IMG/VR virus record: IMGVR_UViG_3300037225_001188
Location: 32,001 to 96,000 of that record
DNA from: a virus
Length of the DNA: 64,000 bases
Strand: one strand, 5' to 3'
The notes beneath the pieces were generated by a model. It worked only from the letters and a program-made list of their open reading frames with translations. It did no database searches and had not been told where the DNA came from. This document shows, in pieces, positions 22,795 to 38,190 of the stretch. Numbering within the stretch: the stretch's first letter is position 1; each line of letters starts with the position of its first letter. A program made the position numbers and the translations under genes.

Positions 22795-23359
22795 GCTGGT
22801 TCTCCTCAGACGTACAACAGGAGCTTGTAGGCTCCGGTCGCGCACGCCTCATTATAGGTCTTGATGAACTCCTCAGTGCAGCCGTGCTTCCGCATGTGGC
22901 TGACGGTGCTCTCGATGAACCTGGCGCGGGCAGCGTATTCCCCAATCGGGCAGTGCAGCAGGAACTCGCATGCATCCTTGTGGGCGAACGTGGCGTACTC
23001 CATGCAGTACTGCCAGTTGATGTTATCGTCCTCGAACAGGTCGCTAGCCTCGACCTCGGCGATGACGTGGAAGCGCATGGTCTACCCCTTTTTGTTCTTG
23101 GTCTGGTTGTCGTACCGCGGGTCGCCCTTGATCTTGCTCGGCCAGTCGTGGCCGTTGTGGCAGCAGACCAGCGGGAGCTTCGTCTCCGAGTCGAGGTCCG
23201 TCATCTGTCCGTTCCAACAGACCTCAGTCTCTCCGTCCCACTCCACGTCGTTGCCGCCGGTAGGACAGCCGTCGAACAGAGCGATGCCTGGGATGGTGTC
23301 GCAGGTCCCGATGGCGGGCTCGCCGCACGTCGGGCAGATCGGTTTGCTGAGCTTCATGG

Positions 23360-24505: not shown

Positions 24506-24554
24506 GGTGACTGCCTTTCTCCAGGTTGGCAGAACCTGGGTTGCGGTGCTGCGT

Positions 24555-24590
24555 TGGCCGGACCACGACGAGTCGAACGTCGAGGCCCGG
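24555..24590 (-). ncRNA. tRNA-like minihelix 1
   Basis: CCGGGCC-T-CGACG-TTCGACT-CGTCG-T-GGTCCGG-CCA. Confidence 0.75.
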
Positions 24591-24791
24591 GGTACTATCG
24601 AGCCAGGGCTCCGAGCCCTGCTCTATCCTGGCAGCTTCCCCATTCCGCTCAGGCCGAAGATGAGTCCAAGCGCAAAGGCCATCAGCACGAAGGCGATGCC
24701 GGCCAGGATGGTTCCATTCATCACGGCCGTCTGGACCACGCGCCGTAGCTCGCCCGCCGTCAATTGCGTAGCTGGTTTGAGATTGTCCATC

Positions 24792-26009
24792 TCAGTTCCC
24801 CTTGGTGAAGACGCCGAGCTGCGCCAGCGCGACCGCGTTCGAGTACACGTTGCCGCCGCTCATCGTCAGGCGCAGCGACACCTCGTGGCCCACGGGACCG
24901 CTGTTCTGCACGACGACCTTGACCTTGCCGCTCACCATCGGCTTGCCGCTGAGGCCCATCGCGCTCATCCGCAGCACGGCCTCGCGTGCCGCCGCCTCGC
25001 TGCTCGTGAACAGCATGGTGCCGTCAGTCTCGACGAGCTGCTGCTGGAAGCAGGCCCCGCCGAAGGACAGGCGCAGGCCCTCGGGCGACGCGGCCGCCGC
25101 CTTGACCTCGGGCGCCGTCTCCGCCACCGGCGTCGAGCCGTTGCCGCCGCGGTGGAGGACGACGCTCTTGCGGATGTCCAGCATGGCGTTCACCTTGATA
25201 TCCAGGTCGGCAAGGACCTTGACTGCCTGTTCCACGCCGATGCCGAGCGCCGCCTTGTACAGACCAGCACGCTCGCGCAGGGCCTGGTACTCCTCGAGCC
25301 GCTTGGTGTATGTCGACGGCTTCTGCGTCCCGTCGAACGCCGCCGCCTCCTCCTCCAGCTTCTGGAGCTGCTCGGCCAGGCTCTCGCTGGCCACGGCCTG
25401 GACGACGACCTGGGCCTCGGCCTCCACCTCGCAGAGGACGAGGTCGATGCCGACCTCGGAGATGAACGCGCCGAAGCGTCGGATGGCGTCGAGGCGCTGC
25501 GGCGGCGCCCAGTAGATGCGGCCGTCGCCGCGCACCCGGGAGGCGTCGTGCGCCTCGAAGTAGGCGGAGATGGACTTGGTCCAATCGTCGGCGACCACCT
25601 TCCCGCGCAGGTCCTGGTACTTCACCGCCACCCGCTTGGCGACGTCGTGCTCGCCTTGGACGACGCTCGGGTCCGGCTCGGCCTGCCACCGCAGGGCGGC
25701 GAGGAACTCCGGGTTCTGCCCCTGCGCCAGCTTCACCTTGTCAGCCTCGACGATACCCCATGTCACCTCGTCCCCCTTCTGGACGATCGGAAGCAGCACC
25801 AGGTTCTCCTTCTGCTGGAGGCCCGCCTTCACGCTGTCGATGGCCCGGCTGACGGCGGTGCGGTCGCCAGCGTAGCTGGGGATGTACTTCTCGTCGATGC
25901 CGTGCTTGACGGCGAGGGCCGCGACCTCCTCGGTGGAGACGGCGTTGATGCCGCGGGCGCGGGTGAACACGAACGCGCCCTGAGAGAACTTGCTGGTCGT
26001 GGTTGCCAT
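24792..26009 (-). CDS. Conserved phage protein upstream of AAA/VWA (DUF6744/DUF3150-like)
   Basis: RGDGRIYWAP motif, coiled-coil C-terminus, synteny with the AAA+VWA pair. Confidence 0.55.
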   Translation of the reverse strand: MATTTSKFSQGAFVFTRARGINAVSTEEVAALAVKHGIDEKYIPSYAGDRTAVSRAIDSVKAGLQQKENLVLLPIVQKGDEVTWGIVEADKVKLAQGQNPEFLAALRWQAEPDPSVVQGEHDVAKRVAVKYQDLRGKVVADDWTKSISAYFEAHDASRVRGDGRIYWAPPQRLDAIRRFGAFISEVGIDLVLCEVEAEAQVVVQAVASESLAEQLQKLEEEAAAFDGTQKPSTYTKRLEEYQALRERAGLYKAALGIGVEQAVKVLADLDIKVNAMLDIRKSVVLHRGGNGSTPVAETAPEVKAAAASPEGLRLSFGGACFQQQLVETDGTMLFTSSEAAAREAVLRMSAMGLSGKPMVSGKVKVVVQNSGPVGHEVSLRLTMSGGNVYSNAVALAQLGVFTKGN

Positions 26010-26073
26010 GTTGCTTGGTCCCTTCTCCCGGCGAGGAGCGCCGGGGTGTGAGGTGGGTGGGCCTACTTACTCG

Positions 26074-26115
26074 CGGCAAGAGGGCCGCCGCCTTTAGGCG
26101 GTGGATGAATTGCCG
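26074..26115 (+). mobile_element. Third IS200/IS605-type end hairpin, truncating a small leftward ORF (MTYKIVRYFF...)
   Basis: CGGCAA..CCGCC-TTTA-GGCGG..TTGCCG nested hairpin. Confidence 0.55.
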
Positions 26116-26195
26116 CAGGGAATGTAGCTGGACTCCGGGTCCGTGGTGCGCTTCTTGCCCTTGAAGAAGTACCTGACGATCTTGTAGGTCATCAG

Positions 26196-26786
26196 CTACG
26201 CCTCCATCAGCAGTTGCGATAGGCACGCGAGGGCGGAATCCATGAATGCAGCCCTCGCCACAGCCCACGCCGCAGCCCCCGCCGCAGCCCCCGCCGCAGC
26301 CGACGCCGCAGCCCCCGCCGCATCCCACGCCGCAGCCCCCGCCGCAGCCCCCGCCGCAGCCCCCGCCGCAGCCCCCGCCGCATCCCACGCCGCATCCCAC
26401 GCCGCAGCCGACGCCGCATCCGACGCCGCATCCCACGCCGCAGCCCCCGCCGACGCCGCATCCCACGCCGCATCCGCCATCTCCTCTTGGCTCACGCTCT
26501 CCGGGTCCTCGACGCACCGCCGCACGACCGCGAGGCACTGCGCCACGCGCGGATCGGTGCTTAGGTGCGCAACCTGCTCCGCGCACCAGAGCGCGTACGC
26601 CCGCTGGGACCCCGGCCCTTCGTCGGACAGGACGTGCCAGAGCCACCACGAGTCTAGCCCCTCAGCGGCGAGGTCGAACAGCGTCTCCACCGTCGGCTCG
26701 CAGCCGGCGGGATAGAGGTTCTTGAAGGCGTCGCGCTGCCCCTCGCAGGCGCCGTGCTTCACGAGCAGGTCGTAGGTGATCTTCAT
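26196..26786 (-). CDS. Protein with AAWDAA/AAGAA low-complexity repeats
   Basis: LLVKHGACE N-terminus; mosaic 12-nt repeat tract at about 26260-26475. Confidence 0.75.
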   Translation of the reverse strand: MKITYDLLVKHGACEGQRDAFKNLYPAGCEPTVETLFDLAAEGLDSWWLWHVLSDEGPGSQRAYALWCAEQVAHLSTDPRVAQCLAVVRRCVEDPESVSQEEMADAAWDAASAGAAAWDAASDAASAAAWDAAWDAAGAAAGAAAGAAAGAAAWDAAGAAASAAAGAAAGAAAWAVARAAFMDSALACLSQLLMEA

Positions 26787-27280
26787 GGCCGGTCTCCTTT
26801 ACGCCTGGTTCAAGCTGCGGAGGTAGCGGAGGTAGTGGACGCTCTCGACGATGGCGTCCTGCATGAGGCTCGCCTCGTACCGCGCGCTGCACGCCGCGGC
26901 GATGAACTGCGCCTGCGACCGGTGGTTCTTCTTCGCCTTGGCCGCCTGTTCCAGGGCCGCCATCTCCTGCCGGTGGGCCGCGACCTTCGCCATGATCGCC
27001 ACGTCCCGCTCGTACTTCGCTGCCCGCACGGCCCGGCGGCGGGCGAGGTAGGCGGAGTCGAGGTCGCGGAGCCACGCCATGATGGTGGTTACGGCCATGA
27101 CCGCGGGGTTGCTCTGGAGGATGCGGTTGCCGATGGAGACGGTCATGTTCTGCTTCATGTTCTGCATTTGCATGGTCCTTCTCCAGGCTCGACGGCCTGG
27201 TGTTGTTGCTTGACAACTGCTGCGTGTAGCGGTAGGTTAGCGCTGTTCACTTGGCCAAACAAGAATACAGGAGCTACGAG

Positions 27281-27493
27281 ATGGCGACGAAGAAGACCGA
27301 AGGCAAGATGCGGCGCGGCATGCAGTTCGTGCTCGGCGAGGACGGGCAGCCGGTGCGGTGCCCGAAGTGCAAGCAGAAGATCCGCGAGGTGAGCCCGAAG
27401 AAGCTGCTCACCAAGGAGGAGGTCATCAAGCGAGAGGCCAGGATCGCCAAGATGCAGGCGAACCTGGAGGAGATCAAGCTCATCAACAAGTAG
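27281..27493 (+). CDS. Small basic CxxC protein transcribed against the local gene flow
   Basis: Own TTGACA-N17-TAGGTT promoter near 27210; AGGAG RBS. Confidence 0.6.
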   Translation: MATKKTEGKMRRGMQFVLGEDGQPVRCPKCKQKIREVSPKKLLTKEEVIKREARIAKMQANLEEIKLINK

Positions 27494-28117
27494 CACCACC
27501 GCTCCACGATGAGGGCGAGCCGTCTCGCCCCCACCATGCAACGCTAGGTACTGCCTACCCCTCCACCATTAGCACGGTGTTCTCTCCCGGCACCCACATG
27601 GTCATCAGCACCTTGGTGATGCCGAAGTCCCGCAGGTTGGCGAGCTGGTTCTCCAGGCTGTGGCGCCTGGTGGACAGCTCGACCTCCCGCTCGAAGGCGT
27701 CGAGGAACTCGGGCTGGCTGACCGAGTAGAGCCACTTCCTGGCAGTGGCCTCGGCCAACTGGAGGATCGTCTCGTGGAGCTTCTCCTGTATGATGGCCTT
27801 GGCCTGGGCATAGGTGACACCGATCGGAGACATGGTGGTGGCCTTTCTCCGGCGTGGAGCGCCGGCTTTGCGGAGCTGCTGGCTGGTCTGGCTGCGGACG
27901 TCGAGGTAGAAGCGGAGCCCCTTCATGCTGAGGCCGTCGCAGTTCTCTGGGACCTCGGCGATGCAGGCGACGGCCCGCTCCTCGACCCAGAGGTCCTGCT
28001 GCACGGAGAGGCAGAGCACGAGGACGATGGCGGGGAGCAGGGCGGACGCGAGCATGACGGTCTCGAGCATGGGTGAGCCCTTCTCCGGCGTCAGGCGCCG
28101 GGCTTGACGTATGGCGT

Positions 28118-28166
28118 TGGCCCGCGGCGGCCGGAGTCGAACCGGCCTGACCTCACCGTCCGCGGG
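28118..28166 (-). ncRNA. tRNA-like element 2
   Basis: CCCGCGG...GCCGG-TTCGACT-CCGGC-CG-CCGCGGG-CCA. Confidence 0.75.
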
Positions 28167-28173
28167 ATGCTAC

Positions 28174-28446
28174 CTACTCGGTCTCGAGCCCGGCGAGCGC
28201 GAAGATCTCCTCCTTCTCGTCGTCATCTAGCCCCTCCCCGTACTGCTCGATCAGCACGGCCGGGTCCCCGATCTCCCAGCGGTGGCCGTTGCTCCACTGC
28301 GAGGGCGTCTCGCAGTACCACGTCCCCTTGCTGGACAGGTACAGGTCCCCGGTGTGGAGGTTGTGCCCGTCGTGGTAGTTCAGGCTCCACGACTTCTTCG
28401 CCTTCTCCGTGTCGAACCTGTGGCCCTCGATCAGAACGATGCTTAT
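28174..28446 (-). CDS. Small phage protein with ATA in the start position (missed by the ORF track)
   Basis: (M)SIVLIEGHRFDTEKAKK...LYLSSKGTWY, 90 aa, high-GC codon pattern. Confidence 0.65.
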   Translation of the reverse strand: MSIVLIEGHRFDTEKAKKSWSLNYHDGHNLHTGDLYLSSKGTWYCETPSQWSNGHRWEIGDPAVLIEQYGEGLDDDEKEEIFALAGLETE

Positions 28447-28493
28447 GGTGCTCTCGCTTTCTGGGGGGTTGCCCCTGCCGGGGTTGCCGGCTC

Positions 28494-28545
28494 TAGCCCT
28501 GCCGCCCGGGAGTCGAACCCGGAGCGGTCTCCGATTGCGGCAGGG
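28494..28545 (-). ncRNA. tRNA-like element 3
   Basis: CCCTGCCGC...CCGGG-TTCGACT-CCCGG-GCGGCAGGG-CTA. Confidence 0.75.
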
Positions 28546-28553
28546 GTTCTGCG

Positions 28554-29003
28554 CTACGCCGGCTCCTTCGGCGCGGCGAAGCTCTCCGCCGCGGCGGTGG
28601 CGGCCTTGGCGTTCGCGGCGTCGGGCTTCGAGCCGCAGACCACGAGGTTGACGCCGACCTGGTAACCGGTCGCCTTGGTCGTCGAGCCCGGCTTGCTGCC
28701 CATCTTGACGAGGTTGCCGGAGACCTGCAGCGTGACGGGCACGCCGGCGATGGTGGTCTCGACCTTGCCGCCGATGCGGCTCCCGGTCGAGCCGGTCGAG
28801 AACGCCTTGGCCTCGGGCTTGAACTCGACGCCGAGGACCGCGACCTTCTCTGCGGTCGGGCTCTTGCCAGAGGCGTACCAGCCCAGGCTTCCCGTCGAGA
28901 AGCGACGGGGCAAGGCGACGATGCTGGTGTCGTCGATGGCGAGGGCGAGCGGGGCGGCGGCGGCGAGGAACTCGGACTCGGTCATGTTGAACTTGGTGGT
29001 CAT
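28554..29003 (-). CDS. Conserved hypothetical protein with duplicated FSTGS and NL..GSK motifs
   Basis: FSTGSLGWY / FSTGSTGS and LQVSGNLVKMGSK / YQVGVNLVVCGSK. Confidence 0.7.
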   Translation of the reverse strand: MTTKFNMTESEFLAAAAPLALAIDDTSIVALPRRFSTGSLGWYASGKSPTAEKVAVLGVEFKPEAKAFSTGSTGSRIGGKVETTIAGVPVTLQVSGNLVKMGSKPGSTTKATGYQVGVNLVVCGSKPDAANAKAATAAAESFAAPKEPA

Positions 29004-29082
29004 GTCGTGCTCCTTCTCCCGGTTGGAAGAACTGGGTTGGTCTTGGTCGCTACGCCCGCGGCGAAGCACTCGTCGCAGGCAG

Positions 29083-29124
29083 CGGCCGCCCGTGCCGGAG
29101 TTGAACCGGCGAGCCGTCGGGCGG
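29083..29124 (-). ncRNA. tRNA-like element 4
   Basis: CCGCCCG...GCCGG-TTCAACT-CCGGC-A-CGGGCGG-CCG. Confidence 0.7.
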
Positions 29125-29148
29125 GTGCTACGTTCTCCAGGAACCGTG

Positions 29149-29988
29149 CTACTTGATGAGCGGGTTGCCGTTGCTCCGCAGCCCGCTATCGCTGAGGTAG
29201 CCGTCGTTGCTCAGCTTCACCACCTCCGACGCACGCTCTCGCACCACCTCCGGCGTGAGGCCGGCGAGCATGGAGAGAAACGCAGCCGGCACCGACCCGC
29301 ACTGCGTCACGTTCTTCGGGTCGATGAGGCGGATGTACATGTGCCCCAGCTCGAGGTGCAGCTCCATCACCACCAGCCGCCCGGCCACGTCCTCGGACCC
29401 GGTGACCCGCCCCATGACGAGGCCGGTTGCGTGACCCTCGGTCCCGCCGACGAACGTGACCTTGTAGCCGATCATGGAGCCGACCGCCGCCTCGTGGCTG
29501 CTCAGGCTGCCGGTGCTGATGCCCGGCAGGTACACCTCGCGGCTGTCGAAGTCGAGGTCGCGGCAGTACTGGACGCCGCGCAGCAGGTGCTTCTTGACGG
29601 ACGCCTGCGGCTGCCGGCTCTTGAGCAGGGCCTTGCCCCACTCGTGCAGCGTCAGGCCCTCTGACCCGGCGGAGTTGTGCCCGCCCTCGCCCTTCCAGTA
29701 CGCCTCCTCGATCTCCGGCGGCAGCTTGGTGAGGCAGCCGCGGTTCCAGGAGCGCACCTCGTAGAGGCTCAGCGGCAGGCCGTCGCCGCCGTAGGTCCCG
29801 CTGAGGGAGACCTCCTGGTCGCCGAGGTGCAGCGTGCCGCCCATGAATTGGCCGCACTGGCGCATGGAGACGTGGCGCACGATGCCGTAGAGGCCCTCCT
29901 TCTTGCTACCGAAGAGGACGAGGAACTGTCCGGCGGCAAGCTGCTCGCCGTCCTTGCTGTAGCCCCTGCGCGAGTTGGTGATGAACAT
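29149..29988 (-). CDS. Hypothetical protein
   Basis: MFITNSRRG start after a hairpin-RBS leader. Confidence 0.65.
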   Translation of the reverse strand: MFITNSRRGYSKDGEQLAAGQFLVLFGSKKEGLYGIVRHVSMRQCGQFMGGTLHLGDQEVSLSGTYGGDGLPLSLYEVRSWNRGCLTKLPPEIEEAYWKGEGGHNSAGSEGLTLHEWGKALLKSRQPQASVKKHLLRGVQYCRDLDFDSREVYLPGISTGSLSSHEAAVGSMIGYKVTFVGGTEGHATGLVMGRVTGSEDVAGRLVVMELHLELGHMYIRLIDPKNVTQCGSVPAAFLSMLAGLTPEVVRERASEVVKLSNDGYLSDSGLRSNGNPLIK

Positions 29989-30027
29989 CTGCGTGCTCCT
30001 TCTCCCGGCTCGTGGCCGGGTGAACGT

Positions 30028-30074
30028 TGGTCGGGCCGGCGCGAGTCGGACGCGCCTCGGTCTCCGATGGCCCG
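30028..30074 (-). ncRNA. tRNA-like element 5
   Basis: CGGGCC-ATCGGAGACCGA-GGCGCG-TCCGACT-CGCGCC-GGCCCG-ACCA. Confidence 0.75.
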
Positions 30075-31502
30075 CACAGCAAGGAGCCCCGGCAACATCA
30101 CGCTGCCGGGGCTCCGGTACTTCGTCCACGGTTCCATGTCGGTGAGGCCAGGGTCCGCAGCGGACCTACCATCCTCACCCTGCAGCATCTATCGGCGCTC
30201 GCCTCTAGGCGGGGGTGCCAGCCCGTGCGCGCCTCAGCGTCTCAACTCCTGCCGTCTCGTGGTGGCCGGTCGCTTGGAGCAACTCATGGTGTCGGGCTCG
30301 TGCCCATCCAACAGAGGCCCCAGCGTACCATGCCGGTGGAGTGATGGTCTAGTCGTCGCCCCGCTTGCGTCGCGCCTCGCAGTACGAGCGCAGGATGGAG
30401 TAGCGCTCAGGGTGCATCTTGATGAGCTGCTCCACCTCGCTCAGCGTGAGCGGGTTGGGCCCCGTCTGCACCTCGTTGAAGGTGCGGAGGACGATGCGGA
30501 TGCGTTCATCGGCGTTCTGGCACATGCGCTTCTGGCCGGCGGTCGTGGCGTTGAACGCCTTCTCGATCTTCGCGTTGAGGCACATGCTACTCGTCCTCAT
30601 TGCTCTCTTTGCCGCACTCGCAGTCGTCCTCGAACTCGCCGCACTCCGAGCAGCCGTGGTGCTCCTTGAGCTGGGAGACCACCGCCTCCTCGGTGTCGCC
30701 GGTCTCCCAGTCGGTGCAGTCGAGGTAGCCGGGCGCGCTCATCCGCCCGACCCAGCCGTGGCAGCGCTCGATGGAGTACGCCTTCCGGTTCTCGCAGTAG
30801 TCGGCCAGCTCGGGCGGGACGAGGAAGGGGCCGTCCGGGTACTCGACCCGGACCCAGCTGCCGGCCGGGTCGCTCTCCGTGACCTCGGCGTCGTGCCGCA
30901 TCTCCGGGGTCGGGGTGAAGTCGGCCACGTCGCACGGGATGACGTCGGTGCCTGACGGGCCGTCGACCAGCAGGTAGTCGGTCTCGTAGGCGGTCGGCTG
31001 CATGAAGCTCATGGTCTCCTCCAGTTGTACACCGCGGCCCCGAGCCGGCGGTTCATCTCCAGGTACACGTCGAGCGGGGCGTACATCAGGCCGCCCCACG
31101 TGCCGTCCGCCCGCGGTGGCTCGTCGCGCCCCGGCACGCACAGCGGGAGCTTCAGCGTCGCCATGATGTGGCCATCGTCGATGACCATGGTGTTGACGCC
31201 CGGCACGCCGCAGATCAACGCGGCCTTGACGCGGCCGTTCCGCATCCCGCCGTAGCCCTGGTGACTGACGGTGGAGTCGGGGCCCGTGCGGTACTCGATG
31301 CTGTACCCGCCGCGGCCCACGTGAAAGTGCCCGCCGGCGGCCGCGGCCCGGAGCATCCTGAGGTCGCTGCGCATACTCTCCCGCTCCAGGCCGGCGGCCT
31401 TCTCCACCTGCCCGTCCTCACGGAGCTTGCGGTAGTACCACCAGCCCTTGGCCTCCCGGCGGAGTAGCCGGAGGAGGTGGTGGGCCCGGCGTGCGGTGGT
31501 CA

Positions 31503-31982
31503 TCACAGCACGCCCCGGTCGGTCAGGCTCACGTAGTTGTCGCCGCCGATGATGCAGTGATCCAACAGCAGGATGCCGAGGAGCTGACCGCACTCCTTGA
31601 GCCGGCTCGTCAGGGCGAGGTCGTCGCCGGATGGCTCCGGGTCGCCGCTCGGGTGGTTGTGCACGGCGAACCAGGCCGCGGCCGCGGCGGAGATGAGCGG
31701 GCGGAACACCTCGCGTGGGTGGACGTCCACCTGCGCGAGCGTGCCGCGGCTGACCTCGAAGCACGCCTTGACGCGGTGCTTGCTGTCGAGCGCCAGGGCG
31801 AAGAAGCTCTCCTGCTCGCGCGTCGGCAGGTCCGGGTAGCGCTGCAGGACGAACTCGTAGACTTGCTGCGGGCTGCGTAGGCGATCGGAGAGCGGGCGAG
31901 GGCGAGCGTAGCGCACCACCTCGGCCTCCGCGAGGAAGGTGCGGGCGGCCTCCACGGCCGCGGCAAATGACCTCTGGGCCAT
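31503..31982 (-). CDS. radC: RadC-like JAB-domain protein
   Basis: EQESF, VHPREVF, HNHPSGDPEPSGDD, LLDHCIIG. Confidence 0.93.
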   Translation of the reverse strand: MAQRSFAAAVEAARTFLAEAEVVRYARPRPLSDRLRSPQQVYEFVLQRYPDLPTREQESFFALALDSKHRVKACFEVSRGTLAQVDVHPREVFRPLISAAAAAWFAVHNHPSGDPEPSGDDLALTSRLKECGQLLGILLLDHCIIGGDNYVSLTDRGVL

Positions 31983-32018
31983 GCTGCTCCTGTCTCCGGG
32001 CTCGTGGCCCGGGGTTGT

Positions 32019-32056
32019 CGGCCGAGCAGAGCAGGAGTCGAACCCGCGCTGCCCGG
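32019..32056 (-). ncRNA. tRNA-like minihelix 6
   Basis: CCGGGCAG-C-GCGGG-TTCGACT-CCTGC-T-CTGCTCGG-CCG. Confidence 0.7.
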
Positions 32057-33158
32057 GGTGCTGCAGGGTTTCCGGGGCTCCGAGCCCCGGCGCTACTCAA
32101 CCAACTGTCGAGCTGCCTCCTTGAGGATGCACACGCCGGCGCCGAGCCCAAGCCAGTCTCCGCACGAGCGGAGCTGCTGGTCGACCTCCGGCCCGAGCAT
32201 CGGGACCAGCGCGTCCCAGCGAGCGAGCGGGATGTCGTTGAAGCTGTTGGTCTGGTCCTTCTCCTGCGGCAGCTTGAGCGACAGGACGGTGATGCGGAAT
32301 GCGACAAGCTGCCGCACCCCAACCGTGACGAACTGGGAGTAGTACTTGCGGTGCCGCTGCTCCGCCTCCTCCCGAGAGATGAATGGGGCCATGTACTCCT
32401 TGCGGGTCATCATGCGTTATCTCCTTGACCGGCGGTCCATCCGCCAGTCGATGTAGAGCCAGAGGAAGCCGCACCCGGCCAGCATGCAGACTTCGAGCAT
32501 CACGCCACCCGCCCCTGGCTGGTGGCGGTGATGACGATGCGCTCGAAGACCGACGCCTCCGGGTCCTCATCGTACTCCACCCCGCCGTCCTCGCTGCCGC
32601 GGTAGGCCACGGCGGCCGCCCGGGACCAGCAGATGACGTCGAGGGTGACCGACTCGCCGCGGGAGAGGCAGAGCGCGACCGCCAGGCCGGCTGCCTCGTT
32701 GGGGTCGTCGCACACCTTGGTTTGGGCTTGCCCGTTGGTGAAGTCGACGTGGTACTCCAGGTCCTTGTGGCCGGCCATGCTAGCTGCTCCGCTTCCCGCT
32801 GGCGGAGATGGCGGCCATGGCGGCGCGGGAGATGGCCACCTCGGCGGCCTCGGTCGGGATGACGCCGCTGCCCATGGAGATGCGGCCGGCGTTACCGACC
32901 AGCTCCACGATGCTGAAGCGGCGCTCGCTCTCCGTGATGACCAGGGACAAGGTGTCCCCGGTCAAGGTCTCCAGGCGGCGCAGGGCGGAGGAGTACTTCG
33001 AGGTCAGGTGGATGTCGGTCATGGGGTTCCTTCTCCTGCCTCGACGGGCAGGTGGGACAAGGTGTATGCTGTCTGGGTGAGCTGATAAAAGTCGGGCCGC
33101 CCCTGGACGCAACTCCAAGAGCGGCCCTGATCAACCAGGTCCCGGGAGGGCCTAGCCG

Positions 33159-33385
33159 ATGTCGAAGTCCAAGATACCTGAAGCGCCAAGAGACAGCAAC
33201 GGAGAACCGGCGGTGCGGCCGCCGCGCGACTGGCACGGTCTCCCGTACTGGCCAGCTGCCATCGACGAGCTTGGCCTTGACCCGTATGACATCCGCGTCT
33301 ACCTGCGGGTGTGTCGCCGGGCCGGTCTCAAGAAGCACTGCTTCGAGAGCGTCAGGAGCATGGCGGCCGGGTGCCGTTGCCGAGC
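33159..33385 (+). pseudogene. Truncated HTH paralogue of 18503-18871
   Basis: IDELGLDPYDIRVYLRVCRRAG...FESVRSMAAGC, then degenerates; similar 5' leader. Confidence 0.55.
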
Positions 33386-33456
33386 AGCAGGTCCACCTGC
33401 ATCTCCTGCTCGTCGCCCAGGTCGGGGCGGTCGTCGAGGTGGTAGCCGGAGGCCAG

Positions 33457-34107
33457 CTATGCGGTCTCGAAGAGCGCCAGCACCTCGGAGTCGGGCACGT
33501 ACTTCGCGGCCGGCTCGCTCGCGTCGTAGGTCTCCAGCGGGAGCGTGGAGACGAACCGCTCGGCCTGGTAGACGGCCCAGGCAGCCTGCTCGGCGTCCGT
33601 CTCCGGGCAGAGCAGCGTGGTGGGCTCGGCCCGCGGCGGGAGCGCGATGAGCTGCTCGGCGGCGTCAAGGGCGACGCGGCTGGTCTTGAAGTTGGCCGTC
33701 TCTGCCATCCCCTCGCGCCGGGCCATGTGCCGCTCGCGCCGGCGCCGCTGCTTGAGGCCCTTGCTACCGGGCCGGTAGGCATACTCGTTCTCCAGGCGCC
33801 AAGCCAGGTCGCGTTTGTGGCTGGCGAGGAAGCGCTCGTGACTGGCGGCCGACGTGGCCGCGTAGTACTTCTCCCGCACCGCGACGCTCTCGTGCTTGGC
33901 CTTGACGCTCTCGTGGTAGTAGGCCTCGAAGATGACGCCGCGGTCCAGGTAGTTGCGCATGGCCTGCCGCGCCAAGCTATCCAGGACGGCAAGCCGCTCG
34001 CCGAGCTTGAGGGCCTCGGCGTCGAGCGCTGCTGCCTTCTCCAGGTGCCGCTCGGCCGCCGCCTTGAACCCGGCGACGGCGAGTGCCTTCTCCTGCCGCT
34101 TGCCCAT
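33457..34107 (-). CDS. Hypothetical protein
   Basis: ORF with hairpin-RBS leader. Confidence 0.6.
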   Translation of the reverse strand: MGKRQEKALAVAGFKAAAERHLEKAAALDAEALKLGERLAVLDSLARQAMRNYLDRGVIFEAYYHESVKAKHESVAVREKYYAATSAASHERFLASHKRDLAWRLENEYAYRPGSKGLKQRRRRERHMARREGMAETANFKTSRVALDAAEQLIALPPRAEPTTLLCPETDAEQAAWAVYQAERFVSTLPLETYDASEPAAKYVPDSEVLALFETA

Positions 34108-34153
34108 GACGTGTCCTCTTCTCCCGAGCCTCGCCCGGGTGGTAGGTGCTACT

Positions 34154-34191
34154 TGGCCGGCCAGCGGTGGAGTCGAACCACCTGCTGCCGG
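34154..34191 (-). ncRNA. tRNA-like minihelix 7
   Basis: CCGGCAGC-A-GGTGG-TTCGACT-CCACC-GCTGGCCGG-CCA. Confidence 0.75.
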
Positions 34192-34745
34192 GTAGCTGCC
34201 AGGTTCTCCGGCGGCCCGGCCGCCGGTGCTACCGCTGCCGCCCCTCGGCCACGTCCAGCTGCCTGCTGTTGTCCTCCCAATCCGAGCAGGCCTCGTCGTC
34301 GCTGCCCGCCATGCAGTCGGCCAAGGTGACTGGCTTAGCCGGGCAGGCGCCGGCGATCTCCGCCAGCGCGTCCGGCAACTCGCGGAGGGCGGCCACCGGT
34401 TCGCGCCGCAGGTACTCCAGGTAGACGCCCACCCGGTGGACCTGCTCCACCTGGCACGACGTCATGGAGGGCTGGGAGAAGAGAGCGAGGGTGATGAGCA
34501 GGGCGCCCATCTCCTACCGCCCCTCCAGCGCCTCGTCGGCGCGGTCGGCGATCTGGAGCAGAGACAGGCCGGTGCTGGCCCACCCGGAGTAGGCGCAGTC
34601 GATGAGGGCCTGGCAAACCACCAAATCGGTCTCCGTGCTGGCGGCGCGGTAGGCATCGGCGGACAGGTCGGCGATGGCGCGGCGCATCTCGTGGCTCATG
34701 GGGTTCCTGTTCTCCCAGCTCAAGGCCGGGTGGTAGGTGCTGCGT

Positions 34746-34788
34746 TGGCCTGCCGGGCGGGAATCGAACCCACGAGCCGGGCGGCAGG
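34746..34788 (-). ncRNA. tRNA-like element 8
   Basis: CCTGCCG...GTGGG-TTCGATT-CCCGC-C-CGGCAGG-CCA. Confidence 0.75.
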
Positions 34789-35487
34789 TTTGCTACCAGG
34801 TTCTCCCTAGCAAGTGCAGCCGTCCGGGATGTCGTTCTCCTGCTCGGGCTGGCCGTTGACGTGGGCGATCGGCTCGGAGTCCAGCTCCGTCTCCGTCTCC
34901 AGCGTCCCGCTGCTGAGGGCCGTGAACGGGAACAGCTGGAAGGCGTCGTCGTAGTCCGGGTGCTCGAGCTGCAGCACGGTCTCCATGCAGTCGGCCTGTG
35001 CCTCGGCGGTGCCGTAGCCAACGGGCGCCACATCCTGCGCCACGACCATCTCCGCCACCACCAGGTCCAGGGCGTCGGGCTGGCCGGCCAGCATCTCCAT
35101 GACCGCCGGGAAGCAGGAGTACGCCGGGCGGTCGGAGCGGGGCGCGGTGGCCTCGATCGGCGCCAGCTCCACGGCCATGGTCCGCACGTTGCAGCGGCCG
35201 CCGTAGCGGAGGCCGGTCTTGTGGTCGACCGCCGTGACCCACTGCTCGTCGTCGGGGACGCTGCCGGAGTGACCGCGCTTCTCCACGCCCAGCATGAAGC
35301 CGGACGCCAGCAGCACGACGCAGCGCTTGCTAGTGAACGTGCCGCCGAGGCGCGCGGTGGTGGAGTACAGGGCGCGCATGGCCTGGCGCTTCTCCATGTC
35401 GCCGCCGGCCGGTACGAATCCTCCGTTGTCTGCCATGGTCTTGCTCCTGGTATCTCCCGAGCCTCGCCCGGGTGGTTGGTGCTGCGT

Positions 35488-35549
35488 TAGTGCCTGCCGG
35501 TGGAGTCGAACCACCGAGCCGCTGTGCTAGCCGGCCGTCCCACGTAGGC
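35488..35549 (-). ncRNA. tRNA-like element 9 (longest)
   Basis: GCCTAC...GGTGG-TTCGACT-CCACC-GGCAGGC-ACTA. Confidence 0.65.
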
Positions 35550-35959
35550 TCCCTTCTCAGGCTCCCTTCTTCGATCTCCCGGGTATCGCGCCCAGGATCT
35601 ACGCCGCCCGCGCCAGGCGCACCGTGCAGAGCGCCTTGGCCGTCTCTCGGCTGGGCCGGTGGCCGATGCACTTGCGGGTACGGCCGTTGCTCCAGTAGCA
35701 GGCCCAGTCGGTGCCGGAGAACTCCACCGCCCACGCCAGGTGGCCGGAGCTGGCGCTGGAGACGTTGAGGTGGTCGGTCCAGGCCAGAGCGGCGGCGGCG
35801 TCCAGCCTGCTGGCGTGCTGCATGGTCTCTGCCTGCTTCACCGCGTACCCGGCCTGGAAGCCGGAGACGTACTCGGGGTCGGTCCTACACATCCCGCGCC
35901 CGGTCTCCCGGGCGGTGTAGCCATGCTGGTAGCCGAGCTTGTACATGGGAGAGCCTCGC

Positions 35960-38190
35960 AAATAGGTTGGCGGTTATAAACCGGTGGCACGTCCACCCTG
36001 GATTGCTAGGGCATAAAGTACAGGGGTAGTACGGTATATCTCAGGACACACTACTCCCTTGGGGGGTGGCCCTGCTAGGTACATGGTACTAGGTACATGG
36101 TACTACGGCCTATATGTAGGCACACTACTCCCTACATGGTAGGCTAGTCTCTGGCCCGTCTGCTCTGCAAGGTTGACGGTGCCGTCTCTACACGCGCGGG
36201 AGTACTCTAGGGGAGTACTCTACCGCGCCAGCTTGAATCGCGCGTCATCAAACCGCGCGAAGTGCGCGCGATTGCTCATTTGGTGCCGCACTCGCCTTTG
36301 AGGCTAGCCCCTGACTGGTGAATCCCAGTCTAAGCGTGCGGCAGACACCTTAGCCTCGCGTTGTGTGACCCTCTGCTAGCGCACAACCATGCCTAGCTAT
36401 CTCCAGCCTACATGGGGTAGCTACACTCCCACAAAGCCTGCTAGACTCGCTGCACGCGGCACGTTCGAGTCACCCAACGTTCGCTCAAGTGTCTTACCAC
36501 GGTATCGCCTAGCTACCCGTGGCCCCTTCCCTCACTCGCCCGGTACGCTACCTCTGGGAGTGTTCTCGCCTCGAAAGGCTCGACTCCGACGATAGACCGG
36601 TTAAGGGGAAGGTGGCGATTCAATTGTCATAGAACGTCGGTTTGCGATGCTCCGAAGCTACGCTGCTAGCGTGCCACATCGTACCCTCACACTAAGACGC
36701 CTCGACCATGTGCTACAGGCTATCTCCTGGCTTATACTCCAGGGTGCTCAGGTATCGGCTGTCACTAGCCCGACTCCTCCGGTATGTCGCTGCCTCTGTC
36801 CCTTCCACGCGCTTATCGCTTGTGGACCTGAGGCACCGTTTACCTAGCTAGGTGGTGGTTTCCTTTCCCCACGTGCGATAAGCGCCAGTGGTAGTCGCGT
36901 ATGCTCTACCGCGTACGAATGCTGCGCGGTATGTCGCGTTTTTCACGCTACCGGGGGCCATGTGGCGCCCATGGTAACCGTCGAGATAGCCTTGCTCAGC
37001 CGCGCGATATCCTGGCATGTAGGGGCCAGAATCGTCGGGGCGGCGGATGAGCTGCGCTTGATGCTTAGCTCGCATCCTCTTCTGCACCATGACTGGATTG
37101 GCCATGGTTTACGCTCCGAATCTACGGCTAGCCGTGCGCACTATGCGACGGCTTGAGTAACTACCGTGTAACCCGTGGTTAACGTCTAGCGGGCTGGCAT
37201 TGCCGCGTGCTGCGTGGGCGTAGTCTGCAAGCCAATGCCGCGTGACCTTACGGCCCGTCCGGCACTTCCCACCGAGCAAGGCGCCAGCTACTAGCGCGAT
37301 GATGACGAGGAGTGCCATGCTAGGTGTCCCCAAGGATACGCGCAACGGCATCGGCAACCGTGGGTGCCCACACCGCGTGACCAGCGTGGTAGGCTTCCAC
37401 GATACCGGAGTCGAGGCGCATAAAGGTCCAATCTTCCGCAGTATCGGCAGCGAGCTTGGACGCTATGGCGTGGCGCGCGGAAGCCAGGGGGCTTTGCTCT
37501 GCCGTGTGTGCCGTCGCGTTAACCATGCCAGGGAAGCATTGCAACGTCAGGGCCAGGAAAGTGTGACTGCGATATCATGAGCTTGCGCGGTTTAGGTGAG
37601 GTCCAGACTCCCACCATTGACGGCCGGCGCGAGAGTGAGGCGCGAGAGATATTAAGGCGTTGCGCGATCTACATTGGAAGCATGGGGATAAATCCCCATA
37701 GGCAAGGCATTGGGACGACTGCGGTTTGCGGAGCGATAGGAACCATCGCAGGGAAGGGTGGGGGAGAAGACCCCACCTATAGTCATTTCCGCCATACGTT
37801 GCAATACGTTCTGATATGTAAAGCCTACCTACATGTACCCCTTTACATATGGTGTCTTGAGCCCCCAATTGACACGCGCATTGTACACCATACCTACATG
37901 TACCCCTTTACATATGGGGGCGCCAGCCCCCATCTACTAACCGATGGTCATGTGACCTGTGCCTGTTAACCGTCGGTCGTATCCTATCGACCGGAGTGAT
38001 ACGGGTGCAACGTCGTGATATTACTAGCGTGCGCTCATGTACTCCCTACTGTATGCCGTGCTACCGTACCCTTACAGACGCTCCGTCCTACCAGCTGGGG
38101 CCTAGAGGCTACTTGATCATGCTCGCGCGCACAGAATAGTTTTCAAACTACGTTCCAAGTTTCACGCCTCCTTCAAATCTTCCCTCGTAC
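35960..38190. other. Lower-GC, repeat-rich divergence region (control region, origin or genome end)
   Basis: Gene orientation flips here; few credible ORFs; CTAG-rich; short direct repeats. Confidence 0.6.
37826..37917. repeat. 27-bp direct repeat pair
   Basis: TACCTACATGTACCCCTTTACATATGG at 37826-37852 and 37891-37917. Confidence 0.9.

What the first reader, a model, noticed from the sequence alone, without database searches (positions are those of the whole stretch)
24555..35549. Nine intergenic tRNA minihelices (acceptor-like stem, T-arm, CCA) punctuate the leftward operon
Seen on the minus (coding) strand at 24555, 28118, 28494, 29083, 30028, 32019, 34154, 34746 and 35488: a 5-bp stem with a T-loop (TTCGACT in six; TTCAACT, TCCGACT, TTCGATT once each) stacked on a 6-9 bp acceptor-like stem, followed by CCA (five), CTA (two) or CCG (two). 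D- and anticodon arms are absent or reduced to a 1-14 nt linker in eight copies. Stem sequences differ but pairing is kept, so structure is under selection. Flanks recur (5' GGAGAACCTGGYAGC, 3' ACGCAGCACC). Established: RNase P, RNase Z and the CCA-adding enzyme recognise the acceptor/T-arm half; P1 C4 RNA is matured this way. Inference: tRNA-punctuation of a polycistronic early mRNA, or released decoy RNAs against tRNA-targeting defences.
Basis: partly seen in the sequence, partly recalled or inferred. Interest (0 to 1): 0.85.

Follow-up and report, generated by a model that had tools for sequence, protein, structure and literature searches.

The report
tRNA-like minihelices between phage genes
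An uncultured peat phage carries nine stripped-down tRNA look-alikes (acceptor stem plus T-arm only) in the gaps between genes of one gene block, most likely as cutting signals that let the host's tRNA-processing enzymes chop a long messenger RNA into pieces.

Summary
The window is part of a 130,793-bp, 66.6% GC myovirus-like IMG/VR contig. The contig has no ordinary tRNA. Nine perfect 5-bp stems close a canonical T-loop. All nine lie on the coding (minus) strand, all are intergenic, and all fall within 11 kb (9 of 34 minus-strand loop motifs, 0 of 28 plus-strand; simulated genomes average 0.66). Eight sit inside a 6-9 bp acceptor-like stem, and five are followed by CCA. The T-loop and the G53:C61 pair are invariant, while the stems differ by compensatory changes. 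The D and anticodon arms are missing, so the elements fail tRNA models.

Each element lies 39-55 nt (82 nt in one copy) upstream of the next start codon. It sits within a recurring cassette: sometimes a GC hairpin after the stop codon, then the minihelix, a spacer, and usually a hairpin that sequesters the Shine-Dalgarno sequence.

My best reading (about 0.45) is host RNase P and 3'-end tRNA processing that punctuates a polycistronic mRNA. That would be a tRNA-based analogue of organellar punctuation. Nothing shows cleavage. No RNA data exist. No relative with the elements could be fetched; the accessible homologous loci (30-46% identity) lack them. Rival readings are an uncleaved UTR element, a recombination cassette, decoy RNAs and relics. 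I class it as a new variant of a known kind, with interest 0.6.

The parts
35489..35530 (-). IG1: T-arm (35499-35515, loop TTCGACT), a 3' acceptor-strand remnant and CTA. The 5' acceptor strand is missing, so this is a degenerate copy resembling IG2.
   Evidence: the MFE keeps a 6-bp T-arm only; z -1.84
34746..34788 (-). IG2 minihelix: 7-bp acceptor stem, 8-nt linker, T-arm (loop TTCGATT), then CCA.
34154..34191 (-). IG3 minihelix: 5+3 bp acceptor stem with one bulged G, 1-nt linker, T-arm, then CCA.
   Evidence: the MFE is this structure; z -2.54. The population variant 34161 C>T falls on the bulge/GG position and keeps the pairing.
32019..32056 (-). IG4 minihelix: 8-bp acceptor stem, 1-nt linker, T-arm, then CCG. 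This is the only copy ARAGORN calls at default settings, as a 96-nt 'tRNA-Pro(cgg)' built with upstream coding sequence.
   Evidence: (z -3.82)
30028..30074 (-). IG5 minihelix: 6-bp acceptor stem, a 13-nt linker that forms a 4-bp mini-hairpin, T-arm (loop TCCGACT), a discriminator-like A, then CCA.
   Evidence: three-way junction MFE; z -2.81
29083..29124 (-). IG6 minihelix: 7-bp acceptor stem, 7-nt linker, T-arm (loop TTCAACT), then CCG.
28494..28545 (-). IG7 minihelix: 9-bp acceptor stem, a 14-nt linker with a 3-bp mini-hairpin, T-arm, then CTA. It starts 8 nt after the upstream stop codon.
   Evidence: z -2.61
28118..28166 (-). IG8 minihelix: 7-bp acceptor stem, a 13-nt linker that ends like a tRNA variable loop, T-arm, then CCA. 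It starts 7 nt after the upstream stop codon.
24555..24590 (-). IG9 minihelix: 7-bp acceptor stem, 1-nt linker, T-arm, then CCA. It lies upstream of the MoxR-type AAA ATPase gene.
   Evidence: E 4e-5 with model R1; z -3.55
34208..34226 (-). GC-rich hairpin without a T-run, between the stop codon and the IG3 minihelix. Similar hairpins lie at 32072-32090 (IG4), 24604-24620 (IG9) and 30083-30115 (IG5).
   Evidence: sequence read. Coordinates were derived by hand.
34123..34139 (-). Hairpin whose 3' arm ends in the first GG of the Shine-Dalgarno sequence of the next gene. Equivalent hairpins follow the minihelices at 35456-35472, 34714-34730, 31996-32012, 30004-30020, 28085-28101 and 24521-24539. 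Seven further copies sit in leftward 5'UTRs that have no minihelix.
33094..33127 (-). Terminator-like 14-bp hairpin followed by a T-run, inside a 435-nt non-coding gap. It probably divides the leftward block into at least two transcripts.
36025..36222 (.). Repeat-rich, lower-GC control region just upstream of the first leftward gene. It is the likely start of leftward transcription (inference).

Best explanation
The nine elements are drastically reduced tRNA-like RNAs. They keep only the part of a tRNA that the 5'- and 3'-end processing machinery reads: an acceptor-like stem, a T-stem, a canonical T-loop, and usually CCA.

They are transcribed as part of long leftward mRNAs. Host RNase P cuts at the 5' edge of each acceptor stem. 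The 3' side is trimmed or cut by the host tRNA 3'-end pathway: RNase E or RNase Z plus exonucleases, with the CCA-adding enzyme where CCA is missing.

This separates blocks of translationally coupled genes into individual mRNAs. The upstream piece ends at or near a GC hairpin (4 of 9 copies). The downstream piece begins about 40-55 nt before its start codon, with the minihelix or the Shine-Dalgarno hairpin as a structured 5' end. The outcome would be cistron-specific stability and expression.

Shown: the anatomy, the position, the strand bias, the compensatory stem variation and the absence of phage-encoded processing enzymes. Inferred: co-transcription, every cleavage step and the benefit.
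For: 1. Non-random, strand-specific and intergenic. Nine perfect T-arms lie on the coding strand within 11 kb and none elsewhere in 131 kb.

2. tRNA-specific features are kept and decoding features are lost.
- T54, C56, A58 and T60 are present in 9 of 9 copies, R57 in 9 of 9, and the G53:C61 pair in 9 of 9.
- Linkers of 1-14 nt replace the D and anticodon arms.

3. Stems differ yet still pair.
- Four of the 5 T-stem pairs show changes on both sides. The covariation score is 0.864 against 0.184 in shuffles, with 0 of 500 shuffles as high.
- For acceptor plus T-stem together there are 22 double-change cells against 6.3 in shuffles, with 0 of 5000 as high.

4. Acceptor stems of 6 bp or more occur in 7 of 9 copies against a background rate of 0.113. 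CCA follows in 5 of 9.

5. The MFE fold is acceptor plus T-arm in 7 of 9 copies, with z-scores from -1.0 to -3.8.

6. Placement fits a processing module (coordinates).
- The distance from the minihelix to the next start codon is 39-55 nt in 8 of 9 copies.
- The distance from the stop codon is 7-274 nt.
- The elements sit at the boundaries of gene blocks whose internal genes overlap stop to start.

7. Flanking hairpins without T-runs lie where processed 3' and 5' ends would need protection.

8. Precedent from the literature.
- Acceptor-stem/T-stem/T-loop hairpins are efficient RNase P substrates. RNase P is reported to process C4 antisense RNA, M3 RNA and operon mRNAs (PMC11143913, passages).
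- M. smegmatis YrlA has a tRNA-like module with a 7-bp acceptor stem. It is cut by RNase P and gains CCA in vivo (PMC4201824, passages).

9. The phage encodes none of the following, so a host enzyme would be the actor: CCA-adding enzyme, MBL-type RNase Z-like protein, PIN nuclease or RNase P RNA.

10. Distant relatives carry true tRNA arrays: 35 tRNAs in 18 kb of G004. That offers a plausible evolutionary source.
Against: - There are no RNA data of any kind.
- No second genome with the elements could be fetched, so all covariation is among paralogues that were selected because they pair. The pairing percentages are therefore circular.
- The geometry is not textbook.
  - The first pair is C:G rather than G:C.
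  - Most copies have no separate discriminator base, unless the stem is read as 1 bp shorter.
  - In 6 of the 8 copies with an acceptor stem, 1-2 unpaired nucleotides lie between the T-stem and the acceptor 3' strand, which interrupts the coaxial stack.
- Four of 9 copies lack CCA.
- IG1 has no acceptor stem.
- The Shine-Dalgarno hairpin cassette also occurs in 7 5'UTRs without a minihelix. Three sizeable intergenic gaps in the same block also lack one. Processing is therefore not needed for every gene.
- At IG7 and IG8 a cut would leave the upstream gene with only 7-8 nt of 3'UTR and no protective hairpin.
- The nearest accessible homologous locus, L134 (46% protein identity), has a plain hairpin plus a Shine-Dalgarno hairpin upstream of the gene and no T-arm. 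Its next gene follows with an overlapping stop and start.
Confidence: 0.45

Rival explanations
1. The minihelix is an uncleaved cis-acting UTR element. It stays in the mRNA and works as a structured module. It could be a stabiliser against 5'- or 3'-end-dependent decay. It could equally be a landing site for a tRNA-binding host factor, or a phage protein, that tunes translation of the gene 40-55 nt downstream. Candidate host factors are TruB/TrmA-type T-loop enzymes acting as chaperones, EF-Tu and ribosomal components.
For: The spacing to the downstream start codon is tight, 39-55 nt in 8 of 9 copies, while the spacing to the upstream stop codon varies. The element is embedded in a 5'UTR cassette with a Shine-Dalgarno-sequestering hairpin that also exists without it. 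The invariance of the T-loop beyond what a plain hairpin needs points to recognition of the loop itself.
Against: A plain stabilising hairpin would need neither a T-loop nor CCA. The CCA enrichment and the acceptor-like geometry point to end-processing enzymes. No candidate RNA-binding protein was recognised among the operon's proteins, though most have no family at all.
Confidence: 0.2
2. The elements are part of a recombination or regulatory cassette. The composite intergenic cassette (hairpin, minihelix, spacer, Shine-Dalgarno hairpin) would mainly be a repeated 'linker'. It would spread with gene modules and promote their shuffling by homologous recombination, like the PeSL cassettes of T4-type phages. 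On this view the tRNA-like part is incidental ancestry.
For: The similarities between copies are mosaic.
- IG1, IG2 and IG3 share the 3' spacer.
- IG4 and IG5 share the Shine-Dalgarno hairpin.
- IG4 and IG9 share the upstream hairpin.
- IG5 and IG7 share the linker.
- IG6 and IG8 share the T-stem.

The flanking genes are mostly ORFans with almost no synteny elsewhere. Only 2 of 75 loci with a hit share a second gene, and the 209-aa gene has no homologue. PeSL precedent: PMC2839356 and PMC4122927 (search listing and abstract starts only).
Against: Recombination linkers need sequence identity, not maintained base pairing. Here the stems diverge while pairing and the T-loop are kept. No promoter-like sites were found (0 found), unlike PeSLs. 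This reading is also compatible with the best explanation rather than exclusive of it.
Confidence: 0.1
3. The elements yield released decoy or sponge RNAs. After excision, the 35-50-nt minihelices ending in CCA would accumulate. They would titrate host factors that attack or read the acceptor/T half of tRNAs, such as toxins or defence enzymes that modify or cleave the tRNA 3' end, or tRNA-binding sensors. This would protect the real tRNA pool during infection.
For: There are nine copies in one gene block, which would give high dosage. The CCA-bearing acceptor ends are exactly what such enzymes recognise. The block sits next to genes typical of conflict systems: RadC-like JAB, MoxR AAA, VWA and SNF2 helicase. 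The phage has no tRNAs of its own to replace damaged ones.
Against: There is no direct evidence. The stems differ between copies, so they do not mimic one particular tRNA. Four of 9 copies lack an encoded CCA. The intergenic position and the fixed distance to start codons are explained more simply by mRNA processing. A literature search for phage tRNA-like decoys of this kind found nothing relevant.
Confidence: 0.1
4. The elements are decaying relics. They would be leftovers of a former tRNA array, like those in distant relatives. They would have lost their D and anticodon arms and now be neutral.
For: Distant relatives have large true tRNA arrays. The IG8 linker ends like a tRNA variable loop. 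IG4 and IG9 have an upstream hairpin with a 7-nt, anticodon-loop-like loop. IG1 is visibly decayed.
Against: Neutral decay would not leave 9 of 9 perfect T-stems, 9 of 9 canonical T-loops and 8 of 9 paired acceptor stems while removing the same two arms every time. The shared flanks show the copies are paralogues of a cassette, not nine different tRNAs.
Confidence: 0.1

Closest known systems
Minimal RNase P model substrates (acceptor stem, T-stem and T-loop hairpins with 3' CCA; McClain, Guerrier-Takada and Altman 1987, as described in PMC11143913)
   Same: The architecture is the same: an acceptor-like helix continued by a 5-bp T-stem and a 7-nt T-loop, a single-stranded 5' leader, and 3' CCA in 5 of 9 copies.
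   Different: These are natural elements inside mRNAs. Most copies have 1-14 extra nucleotides on the 5' side of the junction and 1-2 on the 3' side. The first pair is C:G. Cleavage is untested.
tRNA punctuation of organellar polycistronic transcripts and plant mitochondrial t-elements (PMC1920247, abstract start seen; animal mitochondria recalled)
   Same: tRNA or tRNA-like structures sit between cistrons and are proposed to define mRNA ends through RNase P and RNase Z.
   Different: Those are organelles with mostly functional tRNAs. Here the setting is a bacteriophage, with nine non-decoding minihelices and no real tRNA in the genome.
Phage T7 early mRNA cut by host RNase III at intergenic hairpins (recalled, not looked up; one search failed on a too-short search term)
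   Same: A phage uses a host endonuclease and repeated intergenic RNA structures to cut a polycistronic mRNA into stable units.
   Different: The enzyme and the structure differ: long double-stranded hairpins for RNase III there, a tRNA-like minihelix here.
tRNA-like module of bacterial Y RNAs (YrlA), including M. smegmatis YrlA (PMC4201824, passages read)
   Same: A non-decoding tRNA mimic with a T-arm and a 7-bp acceptor stem is cut by RNase P and receives CCA. Y RNAs are also reported near Ro60 genes in phages.
   Different: YrlA also has a D-arm mimic and a Ro60-binding stem, and it lies next to Ro60. This phage has no TROVE/Ro60 or RtcB gene. Nothing reached an Rfam gathering score, and the permissive scan of 24000-36200 listed no Y RNA family.
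Repeated intergenic cassettes of phages: PeSL of T4-type phages (PMC2839356, PMC4122927) and start-associated sequences of Cluster K mycobacteriophages (PMC3203893). Only search listings and abstract starts were seen.
   Same: Conserved composite motifs recur in many intergenic regions of one gene block, in one orientation, just upstream of start codons.
   Different: As far as recalled, those cassettes carry promoters, terminators or simple inverted repeats. None is described as tRNA-like.
P1/P7 C4 antisense RNA precursor (listed as an RNase P substrate in PMC11143913)
   Same: A phage RNA matured by host RNase P.
   Different: It is a single regulatory RNA, not a repeated intergenic element. 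Its structure was not compared here.

Membership tests
Canonical tRNA (cloverleaf; Rfam tRNA clan, ARAGORN) | Four-arm cloverleaf with a D-arm and an anticodon arm that scores above curated thresholds | tested here: not met
   Rfam at gathering threshold gave 0 hits. In E-value mode there were only two tRNA-Sec matches, at 24.4 and 19.4 bits against a cut-off of 47. ARAGORN at default settings of 9, a 96-nt forced fold. Linkers of 1-14 nt replace both arms.
Canonical tRNA (cloverleaf; Rfam tRNA clan, ARAGORN) | T-arm: 5-bp stem, 7-nt loop with T54, C56, R57 and A58, closed by G53:C61 | tested here: met
   9 of 9 copies
RNase P minimal hairpin substrate | Acceptor helix stacked on the T-stem (about 12 bp in total) with a single-stranded 5' leader | tested here: inconclusive
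   Eight of 9 copies have 6-9 bp plus 5 bp. Six of those 8 have 1-2 unpaired nucleotides on the 3' strand at the junction, and 5 have 7-14-nt linkers on the 5' strand.
RNase P minimal hairpin substrate | 3' RCCA after the acceptor stem | tested here: inconclusive
   CCA is present in 5 of 9 copies, with CCG x2 and CTA x2 in the rest. A separate discriminator base is present only in IG5, unless the last G:C pair is opened.
RNase P minimal hairpin substrate | Cleavage by RNase P at the 5' edge of the acceptor stem | not testable with these tools
   Needs an in-vitro assay or RNA end mapping. No RNA run was listed.
tRNA punctuation / t-element type processing signal | Lies between cistrons of one primary transcript | tested here: inconclusive
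   All nine are intergenic and on the coding strand, at the boundaries of gene blocks. Co-transcription is not shown, and a terminator-like site lies at 33127-33094.
tRNA punctuation / t-element type processing signal | Mature mRNA ends coincide with the borders of the element | not testable with these tools
   No transcript data
Bacterial Y RNA (YrlA-like) | Encoded next to a Ro60 (TROVE) gene, and carries a Ro-binding stem plus D-arm and T-arm mimics | tested here: not met
   No TROVE or RtcB match in the genome. No D-arm mimic. Nothing reached an Rfam gathering score, and no Y RNA family was listed in the permissive scan of 24000-36200.
tmRNA tRNA-like domain | tmRNA gene with a tag reading frame | tested here: not met
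   ARAGORN -t -m on the whole genome returned only the one tRNA-like call.
PeSL / start-associated-sequence type intergenic cassette | A repeated composite motif upstream of start codons in one gene block | tested here: met
   The Shine-Dalgarno-sequestering hairpin occurs in 14 leftward 5'UTRs, 7 of them behind a minihelix. This shows it works like such a cassette. The promoter part of PeSL was not found: 0 sigma-70-like sites.

The most novel reading that the evidence does not exclude
The phage has turned a former tRNA array into a set of excised small RNAs ending in CCA. These RNAs would serve two purposes at once. They would punctuate the mRNA, and once released they would act as a pool of acceptor-end decoys. 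The decoys would absorb host defence enzymes that target the 3' end or the acceptor/T half of tRNAs. That would be a counter-defence built from RNA rather than protein.
Probability: 0.08. Interest if true: 0.9.

Novelty: new variant of a known kind. Interest (0 to 1): 0.6.

Why it matters
If the minihelices are cut by RNase P, this would be a bacteriophage operon punctuated by non-decoding tRNA mimics. My searches of the held paper library found no such case. It would be a bacterial-virus counterpart of mitochondrial tRNA punctuation and of T7's RNase III sites.

It would show that the processing function of a tRNA can outlive its decoding function in a virus. It would also supply nine natural variants of the minimal RNase P/CCA-enzyme substrate, and compact parts for splitting synthetic operons.

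If instead the released RNAs matter, it would open a new class of RNA-based anti-defence.

The claim is directly testable with synthetic cassettes even though the phage is uncultured.

Tried and rejected
Close relatives
- Megablast of 24000-36000 against phages and plasmids gave no match.
- tblastn of the 405-aa protein and the tail sheath against phages gave no match.
- The MoxR ATPase hit only distant phages, at 29-38% identity.
- The search for related loci with the 405-aa protein and the large terminase in viral contigs found no relative.
- The 209-aa gene between IG1 and IG2 has no homologue in the 5.8-billion-protein set.

The 279-aa gene between IG5 and IG6
- It has 7 homologues besides itself.
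- Alignment-based scans returned 15 viral, 56 metagenome and 5 genome loci at 30-50% identity.
- None has a minihelix cluster. I did not run the T-arm regex on the 5 genome loci L192-L196; they were covered only by model R1.
- Model R1 found only 1 hit at E <= 1 in 637,510 bases, and that hit is part of a real tRNA.
- Only 2 of 75 loci with a hit share a second operon gene.

Pattern scans
The hits that my descriptor picked up were parts of ordinary tRNA clusters.
- The whole-record T-loop pattern in G001-G004 found true tRNA arrays.
- The same pattern over three whole MAGs was uninformative noise.

Covariance model
- MAFFT could not align the variable linkers consistently.
- I therefore built R1 from IG3 and IG4 only. 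In the genome it recovers IG9, IG6 and IG2 at E <= 0.032. It finds only the T-arm of IG1 and IG8, and it misaligns IG5 and IG7.
- I did not build a full nine-copy model or run R-scape. The acceptor covariation comes from a coordinate-based alignment in my own script. Script 62 crashed in its shuffle step and was fixed in 63.

Expression
- No RNA holder was listed.
- The contigs of four peat DNA runs were short and shallow. They showed one variant in IG3 and a 10-nt insertion upstream of it, and nothing on processing.

Other readings considered and dropped
- Y RNA with Ro60.
- tmRNA.
- Intrinsic terminators: the flanking hairpins lack T-runs, and the terminator-like count equals the shuffle expectation.
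- Sigma-70 promoters: 0 found.
- A phage-encoded CCA-adding enzyme, RNase Z-like MBL, PIN nuclease or RNase P RNA.
- attP-type tRNA 3' fragments: both acceptor strands are present.
- The idea that the upstream YAGCA motif is a D-arm remnant with an original acceptor strand before it: the sequences do not pair (reading).

Tools and files not available
- Supplementary files of papers were not consulted.

Full report
**What the window is.** The window is bases 32001-96000 of a single 130,793-bp IMG/VR virus record. The record has 66.6% GC, no N, and a CheckV completeness of 100%. It encodes a large terminase, portal, virion structural protein, tail sheath, tape measure, XkdF-type protease, DnaB-like helicase and a DnaE-type polymerase, so it is a tailed phage with a contractile tail. 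The only sequencing runs that hold it are peat metagenomes. It has no near relative in the phage or plasmid collections. ARAGORN finds no ordinary tRNA or tmRNA in the whole genome apart from one odd 96-nt call discussed below. TAG accounts for 54 of the 110 stop codons I could assign.

**The observation.** On the minus strand, which is the coding strand between about window 6,000 and 36,000, there are nine hairpins with a perfect 5-bp stem and a 7-nt loop.
- The loops are TTCGACT six times, and TTCAACT, TCCGACT and TTCGATT once each.
- In the whole genome the loop motif occurs 28 times on the plus strand and 34 times on the minus strand. A perfect stem closes 0 of 28 and 9 of 34, and those nine are the reported sites. 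All lie within 11 kb. Fifty simulated genomes averaged 0.66 such hairpins, with a maximum of 4.
- Loop positions equivalent to tRNA T54, C56, A58 and T60 are invariant. Position 57 is always a purine. The closing pair is always G:C in the G53:C61 orientation.
- Around the T-arm, seven copies have an ungapped helix of 6-9 bp, and IG3 has 5+3 bp around one bulged G. IG1 has only the 3' strand and looks like IG2 with the 5' strand deleted.
- Random positions in this genome give a helix of 6 bp or more 11.3% of the time, so 7 of 9 is far above chance (binomial 7e-6).
- The three bases after the helix are CCA in five copies, CCG in two and CTA in two. CCA has a frequency of 0.017 on this strand.
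- The stretch between the 5' acceptor strand and the T-stem is 1, 1, 1, 7, 8, 13, 13 and 14 nt. In IG5 and IG7 it forms a 3-4-bp mini-hairpin.
The rest are loosely similar.

**Are they tRNAs?** No.
- Nothing reaches an Rfam gathering score. In permissive mode only IG4 and IG3 give sub-threshold tRNA-Sec matches, at 24.4 and 19.4 bits against a cut-off of 47.
- ARAGORN's single default call, IG4, builds its acceptor stem from coding sequence 60 nt upstream and uses the post-stop hairpin as an anticodon arm.
- With the threshold lowered to 80%, ARAGORN draws cloverleaves ending at eight of the nine sites, but also at nine places inside genes. Those drawings carry little weight.
- RNAfold on the bare elements returns acceptor stem plus T-arm as the MFE in 7 of 9, with z-scores from -1.0 to -3.8.

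**Is the structure maintained?**
- Four of the five T-stem pairs show changes on both sides among 8 distinct sequences. The covariation score is 0.864 against 0.184 in shuffles, and it collapses when partners are slid.
- In a coordinate-built alignment of the T-stem plus the six outer acceptor pairs, there are 22 double-change cells against 6.3 in shuffles, with 0 of 5000 shuffles as high.
- Two cautions apply. The sites were found by asking for pairing, so '100% paired' is circular. The copies are also paralogues in one genome.
- The stronger argument is the contrast between variable stems and an invariant loop, together with the genome-wide absence of the hairpin elsewhere.
- One natural variant seen in two peat runs (34161 C>T) falls on the GG that contains the IG3 bulge and leaves the pairing intact. 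This is a single weak observation.

**Context.** The minihelices mark the boundaries of gene blocks.
- The order is: g35946 | IG1 | g35436 | IG2 | two overlapping genes | IG3 | g34107 | 435-nt gap with a terminator-like hairpin | three packed genes | IG4 | RadC-like gene plus three packed genes | IG5 | g29988 | IG6 | g29003 | IG7 | g28446 | IG8 | two genes | gap | two genes | gap | two genes | IG9 | MoxR ATPase and onward.
- The distance from the end of the minihelix to the next start codon is 55, 49, 49, 39, 43, 82, 50, 50 and 52 nt for IG1 to IG9. The distance from the preceding stop codon is 76, 18, 37, 36, 274, 24, 8, 7 and 32 nt. The element therefore belongs to the 5'UTR of the downstream gene.
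- Seven of the nine are followed by a hairpin of 6-7 bp whose 3' arm ends in the first GG of the Shine-Dalgarno sequence. The same hairpin occurs in seven further leftward 5'UTRs that have no minihelix.
- Four copies (IG3, IG4, IG5, IG9) also have a GC-rich hairpin without a T-run between the stop codon and the minihelix.
- No sigma-70-like promoter was found in 23000-37500. One strong terminator-like site lies at 33127-33094.
- A repeat-rich, lower-GC region lies just upstream of the first leftward gene.

**Relatives.** I could not find a second genome with these elements.
- The 279-aa protein between IG5 and IG6 has a 74% homologue on an ENA contig that I could not fetch. It has a 46% homologue on a 1,510-bp contig, L134.
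- In L134 the gene is preceded by a plain hairpin and a Shine-Dalgarno hairpin, with no T-arm, and the next gene overlaps its stop codon.
- The 15 viral and 56 metagenome loci at 30-46% identity have no minihelix clusters. Those 71 and the 5 genome loci at 37-50% were scanned with model R1, which found one hit in 637 kb, part of a true tRNA.
- Two distant relatives carry real tRNA arrays: 35 tRNAs in 18 kb of G004, and five in the first 3 kb of G002.
- So the phage group is one in which tRNA genes interleaved with ORFs are common. This genome has none, but it has nine minihelices.

**Mechanism proposed.**
- The retained parts are exactly those read by tRNA end-processing enzymes. Hairpins made of acceptor stem, T-stem and T-loop are efficient RNase P substrates. 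RNase P also processes phage C4 and M3 RNAs and polycistronic operon mRNAs (PMC11143913, passages).
- In M. smegmatis the tRNA-like module of YrlA, with a 7-bp acceptor stem, is cut by RNase P and extended with CCA in vivo (PMC4201824, passages).
- The phage encodes no CCA-adding enzyme, RNase Z-like MBL, PIN nuclease or RNase P RNA, so host enzymes would act.
- I therefore favour host RNase P cleavage at the 5' edge of each minihelix, with 3'-side trimming. This would separate the gene blocks, and the flanking hairpins would protect the new ends.
- Functionally this would work like T7's RNase III sites (recalled) and like organellar tRNA punctuation or plant t-elements (PMC1920247, abstract start only).

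**Reasons for caution.**
- The first pair is C:G, and most copies have no distinct discriminator base.
- There is usually an unpaired nucleotide at the junction between the acceptor stem and the T-stem.
- Four copies lack CCA.
- A cut at IG7 or IG8 would leave only a 7-8-nt 3'UTR.
- Other gaps in the block do without the element.
- No RNA evidence exists.

**Rivals.** The rival readings overlap and are not mutually exclusive.
- An uncleaved UTR element read by a T-loop-binding factor.
- A recombination or regulatory cassette of the PeSL kind. The mosaic sharing of sub-modules between copies fits this, but it does not explain the maintained pairing.
- Released decoy RNAs.
- Neutral relics, which is unlikely given the uniform retention of the same half of the tRNA.

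**Novelty.** Five full-text searches found no description of tRNA-like minihelices punctuating a phage operon. The library lacks most subscription journals, and no supplementary files were read. The building blocks are known: the RNase P minimal substrate, tRNA punctuation and phage intergenic cassettes. I therefore class this as a new variant of a known kind, resting on one metagenomic genome and no expression data.

Noticed in passing
window 28446-28174 (minus): The gene after IG7 has ATA at the position where all the other cassettes have ATG. No in-frame ATG, GTG or TTG lies nearby, so it may use a non-canonical start.
   Followed up: partly
window 33022-33457, hairpin 33094-33127 (minus): A 435-nt non-coding gap that contains a 14-bp terminator-like hairpin with a T-run. 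It probably separates two leftward transcription units.
   Followed up: partly
window 36025-36222: A lower-GC region upstream of the first leftward gene with direct repeats (35 nt x2, 14 nt x3, 12 nt x2). It looks like an operator/promoter or origin-type control region.
   Followed up: partly
window 13918-35457 (minus), 14 sites: A hairpin of 6-7 bp that sequesters the first GG of the Shine-Dalgarno sequence recurs in 14 leftward 5'UTRs. It forms a start-associated cassette that is independent of the minihelix.
   Followed up: partly
window 23360-24505, 21373-22845, 58255-61161: The phage carries a bpMoxR-type AAA ATPase, a VWA protein and a 968-aa NHL beta-propeller protein. These are the three component types that Pfam names for MoxR-vWA-beta-propeller ternary systems.
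   Followed up: no
whole genome (G000): TAG is the commonest stop codon, at 54 of 110 high-GC3 ORFs, in a 66.6% GC genome.
   Followed up: no
L190 (G004:C1:40500-58500): A distant relative of 142,794 bp carries 35 ARAGORN-called tRNAs in 18 kb, including a tRNA with a TCA anticodon. The window's phage has none.
   Followed up: partly
window 26285-26661: A very GC-rich stretch (0.80-0.84) inside the 196-aa gene shows very high word depth in the peat metagenomes, and a 6-nt length variant at 26448. It is probably a repeat shared with other organisms.
   Followed up: no
window 27833 (minus): A complete Shine-Dalgarno-hairpin cassette plus ATG lies inside the 171-aa ORF 28070-27555. The ORF may be two genes, or it may have an internal start.
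   Followed up: no
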